Assembly: GCF_006345805.1 (NCBI RefSeq)
Contig: NC_043011.1
Span: 38,824,464 to 38,888,463 of the forward strand
Reading direction: 5' to 3'
Length of the DNA stretch: 64,000 nt
Source of the DNA: Octopus sinensis
Lineage: Eukaryota
Position numbers and translations under genes: made by a program. Below are positions 18,016-58,214 of the stretch, piece after piece (positions within the stretch are counted from its first letter, which is position 1; every line of letters starts with the position of its first letter). Below the pieces are notes generated by a model, which saw only the letters and a program-made list of their open reading frames with translations, was not told the origin of the DNA and did not search any database.

Positions 18016-18776
18016 ATATAAATGTTTGTGTGTGTATGCGTGTGCGTAAACATTTCTATCTACACATATGCATGTAAGTGCGCGTGTGTGTAAATGCATG
18101 TGTATATATCTATATATGTATGTATATATATATAAATTCATATATATATATATAGTATTACATACAAATAAAAGGGAATTTTACCACTATGTGGAAACCC
18201 GTATGCTAGAAGAAGATCCGCTATGGTCTTAACCACTAAGAATTGTTGTCTAGAAAATTTAGCAAACACTAGAAACGTAAACGAGCAAGACAGATGAAAA
18301 GTACCAAAAATATAGATTAATCATAAATAATTGTTTCACTATCAACAAATTACGTAATTTTACTTACATAATTTATCTGTAGATCTTCAGTATGATCGTC
18401 CATACAAATATAATTTGCAGAACTACACACCAGATATCAAACGAGGTCGAAACATTTGTTTATGATCAATCTATATTTTTGTTACTTTCCATCTGTCTTG
18501 CTCGCTTACGTTTCTGGTGTTTGCTGAATTTTCTAGAGAACAATTCTTAGTGGTTAAGACCATAGCGGATCTTCTTCTAACATAAGGGTTTCCACATAGT
18601 GGTAAAATTCCCTCTTATATGTATGTAATACTATATATATATATATATATATATGAATTTATATATATACATACATATATAGATATATACACAGGCATTT
18701 ACACACACGCGCACTTACATGCATATGTGTGGATAGAAATGTTCACGCACACGCATACACACACAAACATTTATAT
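18016..18776. repeat. Long inverted repeat (arms 18016-18337 and 18449-18776) of a Penelope-like tail plus microsatellite
   Basis: The arms are reverse complements over ~320 bp, e.g. GGGAATTTTACCACTATGTGGAAACCC / GGGTTTCCACATAGTGGTAAAATTCCC. Confidence 0.93.
18319..18397 (-). ncRNA. Type-I hammerhead ribozyme motif with a long stem II
   Basis: GATCATA-CTGAAGA-[~46-nt hairpin]-GAAAC-AATT-ATT-TATGATT. The opposite arm keeps GAAAC-ATTT-GTT-TATGATC, so the consensus has loop AATT and cleavage triplet GUU. Confidence 0.75.
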
Positions 18777-18849
18777 ACATACATATATATGTGTGTGTGT
18801 ATGTATGTATGTATGCATGTATGTATATATGCATGTATGTATGTTTCTA

Positions 18850-19243
18850 TGGCGAACAGTCCATATTTGAAAGTTTTGGTTTTCTTCCGAAGTTTTGTTT
18901 CGACGAGGCTTTTTTCCTCTTTCTCAACAGTTGTCATTACTTTCGGGACAGTACTTCTTGATACACCAAACATTTCGGCTATTTTCTTTACGGTAGCGAC
19001 TGCCATACGAGCACGAACAATTTGATCTCTTTGACAATCCCATAGATCTGTCATTTTAATGAATTTTAATTACCTTTTTCTGATGATATCTGAAAAGAAA
19101 CAGCAATTTTAGCAAAGCAAATTAGCTGACACTAATAATAAATAAAAAAACATAAAAATAAACAAGATTCCTTACGGTTTTATAGATATTTCAAAATTAT
19201 GATTCTATAATGCTAGGTGTTTCCATTATTTTGTCCAACCCTG
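18850..19243 (-). mobile_element. Tc1-like transposon 5' end with transposase N-terminus
   Basis: TIR TA-CAGGGTTGGACAAAATAATGGAAACACCT; protein MTDLWDCQRDQIVRARMAVATVKKIAEMFGVSRSTVPKVMTTVEKE. Confidence 0.88.
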
Positions 19244-20420
19244 TATGTACAGGATTATAACTGATGGTAGGACAAGATAAATGGTATAATTTCGTGTTGC
19301 TTATCCCATTTACTAGAATCATGCATAAAGAAAAACAACACAGATCAAGTTACGTTACCTCAGGCGTTGGCCATTTTCCTGAAAGGTCACTTCCGGTTTC
19401 GAAAATTAAGTTGGAAAATGTGTAAATGTAAAGCAGCGAGTCACAGTGACATTTTCGCTTATAAGTATTTAATTATAATGCTTATGACAACAAAATGTAA
19501 AGATCATACAGCTATATCAAGTTCATATGTAAATAATTATGTACGCGCGTGTTAACTATGTAATGGTTTTGTCAACGGAAACTTAGACGTCACTCGCAAG
19601 TGAGTATGACAATCTTATACATACGCATATATATATATTTATGATATATATATATAATATATTATATATATATATATACACCATAAGTATATATTATATA
19701 TATAATATATATATATATATATATATATACATATATATATATACATATATATATAAATACACACATATATATACACATATATATATACATACATACAACA
19801 CACATATATATATATACATACATAATATATATATATATATACATATATATATTTTAATACATACCTATTTATATATACATATATATTATTTTATACATAC
19901 CTATTTATATATATACATATATATATTTATATACATATATATATTTATATATATACATATATATAGAGATTTAGGATTAAATCAAATTTCACAGTATAAA
20001 TATAAATTAAATTAGAGATAAAACCACTATTAGGCAACTGAGTTATATATATATATTATATATGTGTGTGTGTGTGTGTGTGTGTGTGTGTGTGTGTGTG
20101 GTGTGTGTGTGTGTGTGTGTGTGTGTGTGTAATGAGTATATATATATATATATAATATATGTATATATATATATTATATATATATTATAATATGTATATA
20201 TATATATATATTATAATATATATTATATATATATATGTATATATATATGTATATATATATATGTATATATATATATATATATATATATATATATATATAT
20301 ATATATATTAGTAATATATATATATATATATATATATATATATATGTATGTATATATATATATAATATATATATATATATATATATATATATATATATAT
20401 ACATATATTCCGAATAATAC

Positions 20421-21405
20421 ATCAGTTGAATAAAGTTAAAATGGTCTGGTTTTCACGTTATTTTAATGGTACTTCAACTTTAAAAAAATATTTTGTAATC
20501 TTCATAAAGTTCAATTAGTGTTTTCATACTTTCGTAGTAATGAGCAGATTTCAAAATTTAACTGACAGGTGAGTTCTGAGCTACTATAGTACCTCTTAGA
20601 ACATTCAAACAAACTGAATTTTTTGAATACGGTTTTGACCAATCCGCACGCATCTTAAACGTCATGTTTTTCCGGGCATACCGATATTCTGTAATTTGTC
20701 TATATTCATATGTTAAAGATGTTTTTCAATCCAATCCACATCATTAACTGGTTGGTATATTATTGTAGCTATTTCCGTTCAGAACGGGTTTGAATATTTT
20801 AATAAACCGCTTTTCTTTTATCTTTGTTCCAACCTCTCTTGTGTCATGTAATTTGTGGAAAGGTAAAATTAGAAACATTTTCTGACCACGTTTCTATATG
20901 TTCGCTTATTGGAATTTGGTGAACATTGGTGTGGTGGATTTGTCGTTTCTGGACTCGTGAGCGTTCTGATAATGCATTCCCTGTCTCGCCTATACACAGT
21001 CTCTCACAATTCGGGAATTTAATGCGGTAGACCATATTTCTGCTTTTGCAGTTCATATCTGCATTTGCGAAAATCTGTCCATTCTTTCTTCTAATGGATC
21101 TACCAGTATGAATGTATTTATACATTCCACATCTGTTATCATTACACTTGGATACTGTGAATGTCTGAGTTGCATGCTGATTGGTCAAAACCGTATTCCA
21201 AAAATTCAACTTGTTGGTGCGTTCTAATAGGTACTATATTTATCGAGAATGCAACTGTCAGTTAAATGCATTTCGAAATCTGATGATTGCTACGAAAGTA
21301 CGAAGGCGCCAATTGAACTTTATGAACATTACAAAATGTTTAATACTAAAATACCATAATAAAAAACGTGAAAACCAGACCATATTTTCACTTTATTCAA
21401 CTGAT
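20421..21405 (-). mobile_element. 5'-truncated Penelope-like element (probably Neptune type): GIY-YIG fragment between inverted pLTR arms (20421-20664 and 21158-21405)
   Basis: SKCNDNRCGM.KYIHTG..MNCKSRNMVYRIKFPNCERLCIGETG..PISEHI, then KIKEKRFIKIFKPVLN at ~20770-20830. Both outer ends read TTTATTCAACTGAT into (TA)n. Confidence 0.88.
21277..21314 (+). ncRNA. Degenerate minimal hammerhead motif in the pLTR arm (partner at 20513-20550, minus strand)
   Basis: The two arms together give the consensus AAT-CTGATGA-T-TACT-ACGAA-AGTA-T-GAAA-GCGC-TA-ATT; each copy has mutations. Confidence 0.55.
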
Positions 21406-21449
21406 ATATATGAGTGTGTATATATATATATATATATATATCTGCCTTT

Positions 21450-56299: not shown

Positions 56300-56876
56300 A
56301 GCGAGAGAAAAAAGAAAAACAAAGAAAAGAAAGAAAGAAAGAAAGAAAGAGAAAGAAAAGAGAAAGAAGGGAAAAGAGGAAGAAAAGAAAGACGAGAGAA
56401 AGAACAGAGAGAGAAAGAAAGAAACAGAGATGAGGGTGGGAGAGAAAGAAAGAACAAACAAACAAACAAAGAGAGGAAAGAAAAGAAAGAGAAAGAAGAC
56501 AAAACAAAAAACAACGAGGAGAAGAAAAGAGAAAAGAAGAAACAAACAAACAAACCAACAACACAAGAACAAAGAAGAGAAGGAAGGAAAGAGAAAACAA
56601 AGAAGAAAGAAAGAAAGAAAGAGAAAGAAAGAAAAGAGAAAGAAAGAAAGAAAGAACAGAGAGAGAAAGAAGAAACAGAGAGAGGGTGGGAGAGAAAGAA
56701 AGAAACAAACAAACAAACAAAGAGAGAAAGAAAGAAAGAAACAAACAAACAAACAAAGAGAGAAAGAAAGAAAGAAACAAACAAACAAACAAACAAACAA
56801 GCAAACAAAGAGAGAAGGAAGGAAGGAAGGAAAGAAAGAAAGAAAGAAAGAAAGAAAGAAAGAAAGAAAGAAAGAA
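56300..56876. repeat. (AAAG)n/(AAAC)n polypurine compound repeat
   Basis: Direct reading; it explains the long K/E/R and F/L/S ORFs. Confidence 0.95.
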
Positions 56877-57092
56877 ATCCATTTCTCAGATGGTTGAAAT
56901 GTCATTATATATTTCGTCATTTGTCACGTTACCCAGCTGCAGAAAGGGATCTTATAAAATGGTTAAAATTAATGACAGTTCAAAAGTCATCTTTTTTTTC
57001 TTTTTTAGTCGTTGTGCTTTTGGTCAGTTGTCATATTACACAGTTTTAGAAAATAGAATTTATCAAATTGTTTTGATAGAGTATATGTATAC

Positions 57093-57665
57093 CTGCGTGG
57101 TAAGTACCTTACGTACCAGCCACATGGTTCCGGCTTCAATCCCACTGCATGGCATCTTGGGCAAGTGTCTTCTACTATAGCCTCAGGCCGACTTTGTGAG
57201 TGGATTTGGTAGACGGAAAATGAAAGAAGCCCGCCGTATATATATATATATATATATATATATATATATATATATGTGTGTGTGTGTGTGTGTGTGTGTG
57301 TTAGCCTGCTCGCTTAGCCAGCGGGGTGGCGTCATTTGAAGGCTAATACAATGCGAAGCGCATTGTGACCAGCGATGTGTAGCAACATCTGATAGCCTGG
57401 TCGGTCACGTGATCACGTGATATATATATGTGTGTGTGTGTGTGTGTGTGTGTGTGTATGTATATGCTTGTGTGTCTTTCCTCTACCCCCATCGCTTGAT
57501 AACTGATGTTGGTGTGCTTACGTCCCTGTAACTTAGCGGTTCGGCAAAAAAGACCGATAGAATAAGTACCCGGCTTACAAAGAATAAAGTCATGGGGTCG
57601 ATTTGCTCGACTAAAAGCGGTGCTCCAACATGGCCACAGTCAAATGACTGAAACAAATAAAAGAA
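57093..57665 (+). mobile_element. SINE family A with another SINE tail (57302-57421) nested in its internal microsatellite
   Basis: A 5' half, (TA/TG)n, tail of the same type as 40240-40359, (TA/TG)n, then A 3' half. Confidence 0.88.
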
Positions 57666-58175
57666 TACAACGAAAAAAGGCCACGCGACCGCAACACGGC
57701 CGAATATGGGGGAGCGCAAAAGAAAATGAAAATGTCCTGTAGGACTGGAGACAAGAAAGCAGCAGATAGAAAATAAGAACAAAAAATTAAGGAAACGAAC
57801 AGTGAAGAAAAAGTGTAGGAGCAGAGAGAAACGGGCTAGTAGGAAGGGGGAGAAAGAGTGGTGGAGGGCAGAGGGACGGAAGCAACACAGAGGAAAGTGA
57901 TAGAGAGAAAGAGAGAGAAAGATAAATGGAGGAAAGCAAATATGAAATGAAGTGTTTTGCTCAAGAACGCTACGCACCGTCCTGTTCGGGAATCGAAACC
58001 ACAATATAGCGAGCGTAAATGCCATACCCTAATCTACTGGCAAATTGATACGACTATAATTTTCATAATCAAAAAGAGTTAAAAACAGAAGATAATTTGA
58101 AAAAGTTAGGAATTATTTTCTTATGCTAATCTAAATAAATAAAAAAAACTTTTACTTTGTAGACAAGGGATAACT

Positions 58176-58214
58176 TTGGATATGTTTCGGTCTACTCGAC
58201 CTCATCAGCATAAG
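58176..58214 (-). ncRNA. Minimal type-I hammerhead ribozyme with a canonical core
   Basis: CTT(A)TG-CTGATGA-GGTC-GAGTA-GACC-GAAA-CATA-TC-CAAAG. Confidence 0.8.

What the first reader, a model, noticed from the sequence alone, without database searches (positions are those of the whole stretch)
18319..58214. About ten minimal hammerhead ribozyme motifs from about seven unrelated families in 40 kb
Seen: CUGANGA...GAAA cores with closing stems at 18319(-), 20513(-)/21277(+), 21987(-), 22927(-), 34979(+), 38646(+), 40602(-)/40811(+), 54103(+) and 58176(-). The families share no flanking sequence, but all have a 1-2 bp stem III whose loop is palindromic or one change from it (AATT, GCGC, AGCT, (C)ACGTG, CGC(G), CTA(G), CAT(G)). 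Established: Penelope-like element pLTRs and animal retrozymes carry such minimal type-I hammerheads, which cleave as dimers. Inference: this genome hosts a large and diverse set of ribozyme-bearing retroelements that protein-based annotation misses. Most copies here are mutated and probably inactive.
Basis: partly seen in the sequence, partly recalled or inferred. Interest (0 to 1): 0.85.

Follow-up and report, generated by a model that had tools for sequence, protein, structure and literature searches.

The report
Penelope hammerheads with altered catalytic cores
The sites are real, mostly decayed copies of the known hammerhead self-cutting RNA motif at the ends of Penelope-type jumping genes (shown for three of nine families, likely for the rest), and three abundant families in this genome have fixed a change at a normally invariant core base, which may mean a weakened or protein-helped ribozyme; cutting is untested.

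Summary
All 11 sites, plus a missed 12th (56108-), are minimal type-I hammerhead motifs from nine repeat families. They exceed chance (6 hits vs 0.5 shuffled, 0 of 100). Only 4 of 11 keep both core boxes. Families B, G and I lie downstream of Penelope-like (PLE) coding; A, D and F are 350-570 nt non-coding circularly permuted units. Palindromic stem III is predicted stable only as a dimer. This class is published (PMC4209133), and this scan has met it before in other genomes.

The new part is fixed core variants. Family G (three window copies, Hydra-type) has U4C in its master. Separately, the youngest intact Neptune-type PLE lineage switched U4 to C4 and kept amplifying (0.9% vs 2.8% divergence). 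A PLE family with 14,445 exact copies carries A6U, and among the positions left open only 7 and 17, the hammerhead's free positions, vary. That pattern suggests continued selection on a hammerhead with an altered uridine turn. Cleavage is untested, and the most relevant paper (Lunse 2017) could not be read.

The parts
18320..18396 (-). Family A min-hammerhead (C3 at 18390, 46-nt stem II region, U17; G16.2 mutated to A here). Lies in an 18095-18691 insertion with an inverted 5' copy of its 3' end; family unit about 540-570 nt, circularly permuted
   Evidence: I9; z -2.6
20511..20552 (-). Family B hammerhead in the 3' pLTR (about 20418-20602) of a 5'-truncated Neptune-type PLE; core decayed (CUGCUCA)
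20777..21167 (-). Frameshifted remnant of PLE linker plus GIY-YIG endonuclease, 62% and 51% identical to residues 645-775 of an intact PLE ORF of this genome; no Pfam hit on its own
21275..21316 (+). Family B hammerhead in the inverted 5' pLTR copy (about 21220-21408); A15.1 and U16.1 mutated
21987..22097 (-). Family C hammerhead with 84-nt stem II insert (85-93 nt in relatives); G5 mutated to A; stem III ACAGCUGU
22927..22973 (-). Family D hammerhead, U3.G8 here (family: U3-A8 43, U3.G8 17, C3-G8 14, C3.A8 9 of 83 exact matches), at the tip of a long hairpin (22870-23025, z -6.45); about 355-nt tandem unit
34978..35012 (+). Family E, old; both boxes intact and stem II GGA/UCC, but no U16.1 and at most 2 bp of stem I
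38646..38690 (+). Family F hammerhead, near intact (stem III G to A, C17 to U); family has two stem II haplotypes with a compensatory G-C/A-U pair; about 355-nt circularly permuted unit
40600..40651 (-). Family G hammerhead, core CCGAUGA (U4C), inverted partner of 40809
40809..40864 (+). Family G hammerhead, further decayed (U3, C4, G12 to A)
54101..54156 (+). Family G hammerhead with the family core CCGAUGA...GAAA CAGCUG UA; G is the 3' pLTR of a Hydra-type PLE
56071..56113 (-).
58174..58213 (-). Family H hammerhead, boxes and stem II intact, G16.2 mutated to A, deletion in stem I; family stem III ACAUGU
44331..44577 (.). Truncated, partly inverted piece of the family Z terminal repeat, lacking its (A6U) hammerhead

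Best explanation
The sites are decayed copies of minimal type-I hammerhead motifs in the terminal repeats of Penelope-like retroelements (shown for families B, G and I, likely for the other six), which are predicted to cleave only as dimers, and several lineages have fixed core changes (U4C, A6U) that likely weaken rather than abolish cleavage. Likely working cycle: a tandem or more-than-unit transcript carries two motifs; their palindromic stem III halves pair with each other (predicted), both cores fold, and the RNA is cut after position 17, probably slowly and with help from the PLE protein (inferred from PMC11167929). Reverse transcription starts near the 3' repeat and usually stops early, leaving short 3' fragments, often with a 5' inversion, next to (TA)n (architecture shown). 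Families A, D and F are non-coding 350-570 nt units that likely borrow the PLE enzymes, as animal retrozymes do. Inserted copies then decay, so most window copies are dead. The fixed variants sit at positions 4 and 6, the two ends of the uridine turn (recalled structural knowledge), while G5, G8, A9, GAAA and U16.1 are kept.
For: Enrichment over shuffles. Family majorities with intact or compensated cores. Same-strand PLE coding upstream of B, G, I, Y and Z motifs. Stem sequences differ between families while pairing is kept, and family F has a compensatory pair in stem II (12 G-C, 8 A-U, 3 G-U, 5 unpaired of 28 parsed). Monomer stem III is +1.1 to +6.0 kcal/mol, dimer duplex -2.9 to -12.9. 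G master is C4: of the first 100 of 377 exact matches, CCG 77, CUG 11, CCA 12, i.e. symmetric CpG decay. Family Y: of the first 100 of 685, C4 with loop C 52, U4 with loop U 46, mixed 2, CCA 0; the C4 group is younger (median 0.9% vs 2.8% from own majority, n=23 and 25, p=3e-6) and holds ORFs 99.1-100% identical. Family Z: 14,445 exact matches; first 100 have U6 99, C6 1, A6 0, and position 7 U48 A23 C18 G11; A6 form only 133; first 100 of 11,664 keep G5 98, G8 98, A9 99, with position 17 A55 U44 C1 G0; in 22 copies from held loci only columns 7 and 17 are polymorphic.
Against: No cleavage was measured. No coding partner was found within 1.5 kb for A, C, D, E, F or H. Published min-HHRs cleave poorly even as dimers (PMC4209133), and core mutants did not impair insertion in vitro (PMC11167929), so Y and G could have fixed C4 by drift. 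U4C considerably lowers activity in vitro and A6C gives k below 0.1 per min (PMC3088659). Family A's majority stem III is an imperfect palindrome (-2.9). The 54107 and family Z monomers do not fold into the hammerhead form at minimum energy, and 4 of 5 short folds are no better than shuffles. Exact-pattern counts favour well-preserved copies, and the Z copies were picked partly by similarity to the motif. Clades were assigned by linker motif only; no tree was built.
Confidence: 0.62

Rival explanations
1. The motifs are PLE hammerheads, but the variant lineages (G, young Y, Z) carry catalytically dead motifs kept only as a fold or sequence that the PLE protein recognises, or as harmless passengers; cleavage is dispensable for retrotransposition.
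For: Core mutants did not affect insertion in vitro and no RNA-seq ends were seen at the cut site (PMC11167929). Naiad PLEs amplify without canonical hammerheads (PMC8557442). The Y switch to C4 has no compensating core change and could be one neutral substitution in a single master lineage.
Against: In Z the polymorphic positions are exactly 7 and 17, position 17 avoids G (0 of 100), and G5, G8, A9 and GAAA stay fixed across subfamilies whose 3' flanks are about 62% identical. C4 recurs in G, Y and a further family, while substitutions at G5 and A9 are no commoner than in shuffles (small numbers).
Confidence: 0.3
2. The families without a linked ORF (A, C, D, E, F, H) are independent ribozyme-bearing repeats such as satellites or viroid-like RNA insertions, not PLE derivatives.
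For: No PLE coding was linked to them in the fetched loci. D forms a long rod-like hairpin with the hammerhead at its tip.
Against: Same minimal architecture, insertion at (TA)n and inverted partial copies as in B, G and Y. C shares 14 nt with the PLE-linked G. Animal retrozymes are reported to derive from PLE pLTRs (10.64898/2026.07.22.740005, abstract and part 1).
Confidence: 0.06
3. Chance matches in low-complexity, AT-rich DNA.
For: The loosest descriptor gives 1.4 hits per shuffled window, and 7 of 11 sites lack a literal core.
Against: 0 of 100 and 0 of 200 shuffles reach the stricter counts; family majorities restore the cores.
Confidence: 0.01

Closest known systems
Minimal hammerheads (min-HHR) of metazoan Penelope-like elements (Cervera and De la Pena 2014, PMC4209133)
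   Same: Type-I topology, 3-7 bp stem I, unpaired base after A9, palindromic 1-3 bp stem III, frequent U17, many families per genome, mostly solo truncated copies, inverted pairs 100-700 bp apart, U3-A8 variant (family D).
   Different: None of the representative rows in its Fig. S3 (56 stated; text read) has C4 or U6, and none is from a cephalopod; its descriptor required the canonical or U3-A8 core. Stem II inserts of 46-93 nt (A, C) are longer than those shown there.
Neptune-type PLEs (CX2-5CxxC linker before a C-terminal GIY-YIG; PMC8557442)
   Same: B, Y and Z parents have RT, a CX4CxxC linker and GIY-YIG, partial tandems, 5' inversions and microsatellite targets.
   Different: Youngest Y lineage has C4; Z has U6. 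Neptune versus Nematis was not separated by a tree.
Hydra-clade PLEs (PMC8557442, section 11)
   Same: G's parent has the CxCX5C linker, CxxC and CxH near the end of the nuclease, and (TA)n flanks.
   Different: The paper reports canonical hammerheads throughout Hydra; G's master has U4C. The RT was not recovered here.
Non-LTR retrozymes of animals (PMC7229834; 10.64898/2026.07.22.740005)
   Same: A, D and F are non-coding, circularly permuted, sometimes tandem units with one type-I hammerhead each.
   Different: Mostly dispersed one- to two-unit copies; A's unit (540-570 nt) is longer than the roughly 300 nt typical; cores are minimal-type; circular RNA not tested.
Natural hammerhead core variants U4C (viroid) and A6C (phage Bcep176) (PMC3088659)
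   Same: Same positions changed; low but real activity reported.
   Different: There they are rare isolates. Here C4 and U6 are the master state of families with hundreds to over ten thousand copies; A6U is not mentioned in the passages read.

Membership tests
PLE min-HHR | CUGANGA and GAAA boxes, U16.1, H17 in the family majority | tested here: met
   A, B, C, F, H canonical; D commonest U3-A8. Copies with all core positions intact: A 26/29, B 16/29, F 15/29, D 10/29, C 6/28, H 3/8
PLE min-HHR | Canonical core in families G, young Y and Z | tested here: not met
   G C4 (2/29 canonical), Y C4 in the young subfamily, Z U6
PLE min-HHR | Canonical core in family E | tested here: inconclusive
   8 aligned copies, heavily decayed; position 16.1 is C in several, U in others
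PLE min-HHR | Stems I and II pair, with covariation | tested here: met
   different stem sequences across families; compensatory pair in F; most within-family variation is decay
PLE min-HHR | Palindromic stem III, unstable as monomer | tested here: met
   seven families; A imperfect
PLE min-HHR | Self-cleavage as a dimer | not testable with these tools
   needs in vitro transcription
Penelope-like element | Motif in the terminal repeat downstream of RT and GIY-YIG on the same strand (B, G, I, Y, Z) | tested here: met
   for G only the nuclease end was found
Penelope-like element | Linked coding region for A, C, D, E, F, H | tested here: inconclusive
   none linked within 1.5 kb using three query proteins; short truncated or non-autonomous copies would give the same result
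Penelope-like element | Partial tandems and 5' inversions | tested here: met
   Y 4.27 kb tandems; Z 4.3 kb pair; inverted pairs for A, B, G in the window
Neptune / Hydra clade | Linker motif (CX2-5CxxC or CxCX5C) | tested here: met
   against PMC8557442
Neptune / Hydra clade | Placement in an RT phylogeny | not tested
   no reference set on hand
Non-LTR retrozyme | Non-coding tandem or circularly permuted unit with one type-I hammerhead (A, D, F) | tested here: met
Non-LTR retrozyme | Circular RNA in tissues | not testable with these tools
   no raw RNA reads were offered

The most novel reading that the evidence does not exclude
PLE hammerheads in this genome have repeatedly given up the uridine-turn consensus (U4C in a Neptune-type and a Hydra-type lineage independently, A6U in a family of over 14,000 copies) while staying under selection as ribozymes. 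They would be natural, tuned-down or protein-dependent hammerheads invisible to CUGANGA descriptors and Rfam. The paired old-U4 and young-C4 subfamilies of one intact element would give a natural experiment on whether cleavage helps or hinders PLE spread.
Probability: 0.35. Interest if true: 0.72.

Novelty: new variant of a known kind. Interest (0 to 1): 0.5.

Why it matters
What PLE hammerheads do is still open (PMC8557442, PMC11167929). This genome supplies test material: an intact PLE with ORF copies at 99-100% identity whose young subfamily differs from its ancestor at a core base, and a very large family whose variation pattern follows hammerhead rules with U at position 6. If these cleave, the accepted natural core is too narrow and genome counts made with CUGANGA descriptors miss the largest families. 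If they do not, successful PLEs can shed cleavage. The basic observation, many PLE hammerheads in an invertebrate genome, is ordinary.

Tried and rejected
Rfam: the E-value scan listed 150 of 307 matches, none a hammerhead, nearly all microRNA models on microsatellites; 157 were not shown. Gathering scan: 0. Hammerhead_1 on the genome gave 7 matches from 74 scored candidates, a lower bound of no use for counting.

Pfam on the window's GIY-YIG remnant: 0; on G's nuclease only E 0.49.

Site E: a 121-nt query and a 28-nt pattern found only itself; a 361-nt query found 11 distant copies.

An antisense hammerhead in A or G was considered from two loci with opposite-strand coding and rejected: those coding pieces lie beyond microsatellite or unrelated sequence. 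CpG decay as the source of U4 was accepted for G and rejected for Y. An assembly artefact at Y's C4 was rejected: contigs of two other runs span the position with C, and a run of another organism label reads T in 72% of summed depth along with the older variants.

Expression: no RNA holder listed; only contigs were available, so cut sites could not be examined. Viral contigs: no relative of the Y protein. A random genome sample for density was not obtained; flanks of held loci were used, and they are biased towards repeat-rich DNA. Lunse, Weinberg and Breaker 2017 was not held.
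Full report
Setting. The window is contig C15:38,824,464-38,888,463 of a 2.72 Gb animal genome, AT-rich and full of microsatellites. Named relatives of its PLE protein are mostly from molluscs. The SINEs look like those of octopus; that is recalled, not tested.

Observation. All 11 coordinates hold hammerhead-shaped motifs, but only four have literal CUGANGA and GAAA boxes. A first descriptor found 4 sites against 1.4 per shuffle (8 of 200 shuffles reach it), or against 0.11 with stem and palindrome filters (0 of 200). 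A second, tuned after seeing the families, found 6 against 0.5 (0 of 100); five are named sites and one is probably chance. In 358 kb of flanks it found 21 against 2.8 (canonical cores 12 against 0.24), a few from duplicated loci, so the window is typical of repeat-rich DNA here. Rfam finds none of them at gathering level.

Families. Genome searches gave these first-look candidates, which are not copy numbers: A 1266, B 955, C 50, D 547, F 946, G 1315, H 9, E 12, I 60. Alignments of up to 30 best loci restore intact motifs. Majorities of A, B, C, F and H have canonical cores; copies with every core base intact are 26/29, 16/29, 6/28, 15/29 and 3/8. D's commonest core among 83 exact matches is U3-A8 (43), then U3.G8 (17), C3-G8 (14) and C3.A8 (9) (tallied by eye); U3-A8 is the published compensatory variant (PMC4209133). 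E is old and unresolved. A twelfth, degraded site lies at 56108-. Stems differ in sequence between families but pair, and F has two stem II haplotypes with a G-C to A-U change. For the seven majorities parsed, stem III costs +1.1 to +6.0 kcal/mol as a monomer hairpin and gains -2.9 to -12.9 as an intermolecular duplex.

What carries them. The GIY-YIG remnant between the two B copies retrieved 150 scored matches, 8 with open frames of 770-777 aa. These belong to family Y: RT, CX4CxxC linker and GIY-YIG, in 4.27 kb tandems with a hammerhead in each repeat. Its protein matches coding upstream of B on the same strand in 15 of 29 non-window loci. For G, a locus with two inverted repeats enclosed a nuclease with CxCX5C, CxxC and CxH motifs, the Hydra-clade signature (PMC8557442). 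That locus and 5 of the 40 best nuclease matches, one chosen because the link was already visible, all had G 0.9-2.1 kb downstream on the same strand, all with C4. One of four I loci has PLE coding upstream. A, D and F have no linked coding; sequence downstream of the motif matches sequence upstream, giving units of about 540-570, 355 and 355 nt, sometimes tandem. C, E and H showed neither feature.

Mechanism. Shown: architecture, PLE linkage for B, G and I, decay of window copies. Predicted: dimer-only stem III. Inferred from the literature: slow cleavage of tandem transcripts (PMC4209133), help from the PLE protein and no need for cleavage during insertion in vitro (PMC11167929), derivation of retrozymes from PLE repeats (10.64898/2026.07.22.740005).

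Fixed core variants. G: among the first 100 of 377 exact matches, 77 read CCG at positions 3-5, 11 CUG and 12 CCA, which is symmetric CpG decay from a C4 master. Y: among the first 100 of 685, 52 have C4 with a linked loop C, 46 have U4 with loop U, 2 are mixed and none shows CCA. The C4 copies are younger (median 0.9% vs 2.8% from their own majority; 23 and 25 copies, one short U4 copy dropped; p=3e-6), intermediates exist, and seven C4-type ORFs are 99.1-100% identical. The sister family B has U4, so C4 is derived. Contigs of other runs carry C at this position, and a run of another organism label reads mostly T. Z, met in flanks and present in the window only as a truncated piece, is the repeat of another RT-linker-GIY-YIG element (coding on the same strand in 2 of 4 loci fetched). 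It has 14,445 exact matches with positions 6 and 7 left open; the first 100 read U6 in 99, while position 7 is U48, A23, C18, G11. The A6 form has 133 matches. With positions 5, 7, 8, 9, the bulge and 17 open, the first 100 of 11,664 keep G5 98, G8 98, A9 99 and bulge A 99, and position 17 is A55, U44, C1, G0. In 22 copies from held loci (two duplicate loci and one A6 relative left out) only columns 7 and 17 are polymorphic; the 36-nt motif is 89% identical pairwise and the 3' flank 62%. Positions 7 and 17 are the free positions of a hammerhead, so I infer selection on hammerhead function with U at 6. All listing tallies were made by eye and cover only the first 100 rows shown.

Against this reading. 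Nothing was shown to cleave. Pattern searches favour well-kept copies. Y's change may be one neutral substitution. U4C and A6C lower activity (PMC3088659). Monomer folds of the 54107 and Z motifs do not give the hammerhead form.

Literature. Read: PMC4209133 (main text parts 1-2 of 4; supplement parts 1-2 of 3, where no row of Fig. S3 has C4 or U6 and none is a cephalopod); 10.64898/2026.07.22.740005 (part 1 of 5); PMC8557442 (passages, section 11, a search of one supplement; file S2 not seen); PMC3088659 (passages, section 8); passages only of PMC11167929, PMC7229834, PMC6765202, PMC6155905, PMC10085705, PMC3376415 and PMC6962438. Searches for hammerhead with U4C, A6U, CCGAUGA, octopus, cephalopod and uridine turn returned no listing that describes these variants in PLEs; the single A6U hit is a twister paper, seen as a listing only. 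Lunse et al. 2017, on PLE hammerhead variants, was not held and may already cover them. The role of positions 4 and 6 in the uridine turn is recalled; PMC3088659 confirms only a contact between U4 and the phosphate after A6. This scan has reported PLE hammerheads in other genomes.

Verdict. The fixed U4C and A6U cores make it a new variant of a known kind with a direct test. Interest 0.5.

Noticed in passing
L301:273-318 (-) and 14,445 exact matches genome-wide: Family Z: loop-less minimal hammerhead with A6U; only positions 7 and 17 vary; terminal repeat of an RT-GIY-YIG element. The largest hammerhead family seen here.
   Followed up: yes
L221-L236, e.g. L222:2315-5906 (-): Young intact PLE family Y: about 450 aa upstream ORF without Pfam hit overlapping a 775-777 aa RT-EN ORF, 4.27 kb tandems, copies 99-100% identical, hammerhead with U4C.
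   Followed up: yes
L223:8790 (+) and 8769 (-), L063:2914 (+), L239: A further family with stem III ACUC(A/U)GAGU; three copies read C4 and one U4.
   Followed up: no
L012, L018, L046, L072, L102, L103, L112, L122, L184, L207, L226, L234 flanks: At least a dozen more hammerhead families with different stems, many with 50-80 nt stem II inserts and perfect palindromes in stem III.
   Followed up: no
window 22870-23025: Family D places its hammerhead at the tip of a long rod-like hairpin (-69.9 kcal/mol, z -6.45), conserved in the family majority.
   Followed up: partly
window 5276-6028, 24485-24850, 59984-60351, 63385-63941: A 184-nt SINE-like unit occurs as head-to-tail arrays of 2-4 copies as well as singly.
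   Followed up: no
window 9246-9435 (-) and about 13600-13800 (+): Two copies of another repeat contain CUGACGA without a nearby GAAA; not a hammerhead by the descriptors used.
   Followed up: no
G000:C13:29988995-29989039 and six other places: Canonical Hammerhead_1 matches above the Rfam cut-off exist elsewhere in the genome, one pair 431 nt apart in tandem.
   Followed up: no
window 52871-52902: Short TTAGGG telomere-like repeat, two 16-nt units.
   Followed up: no
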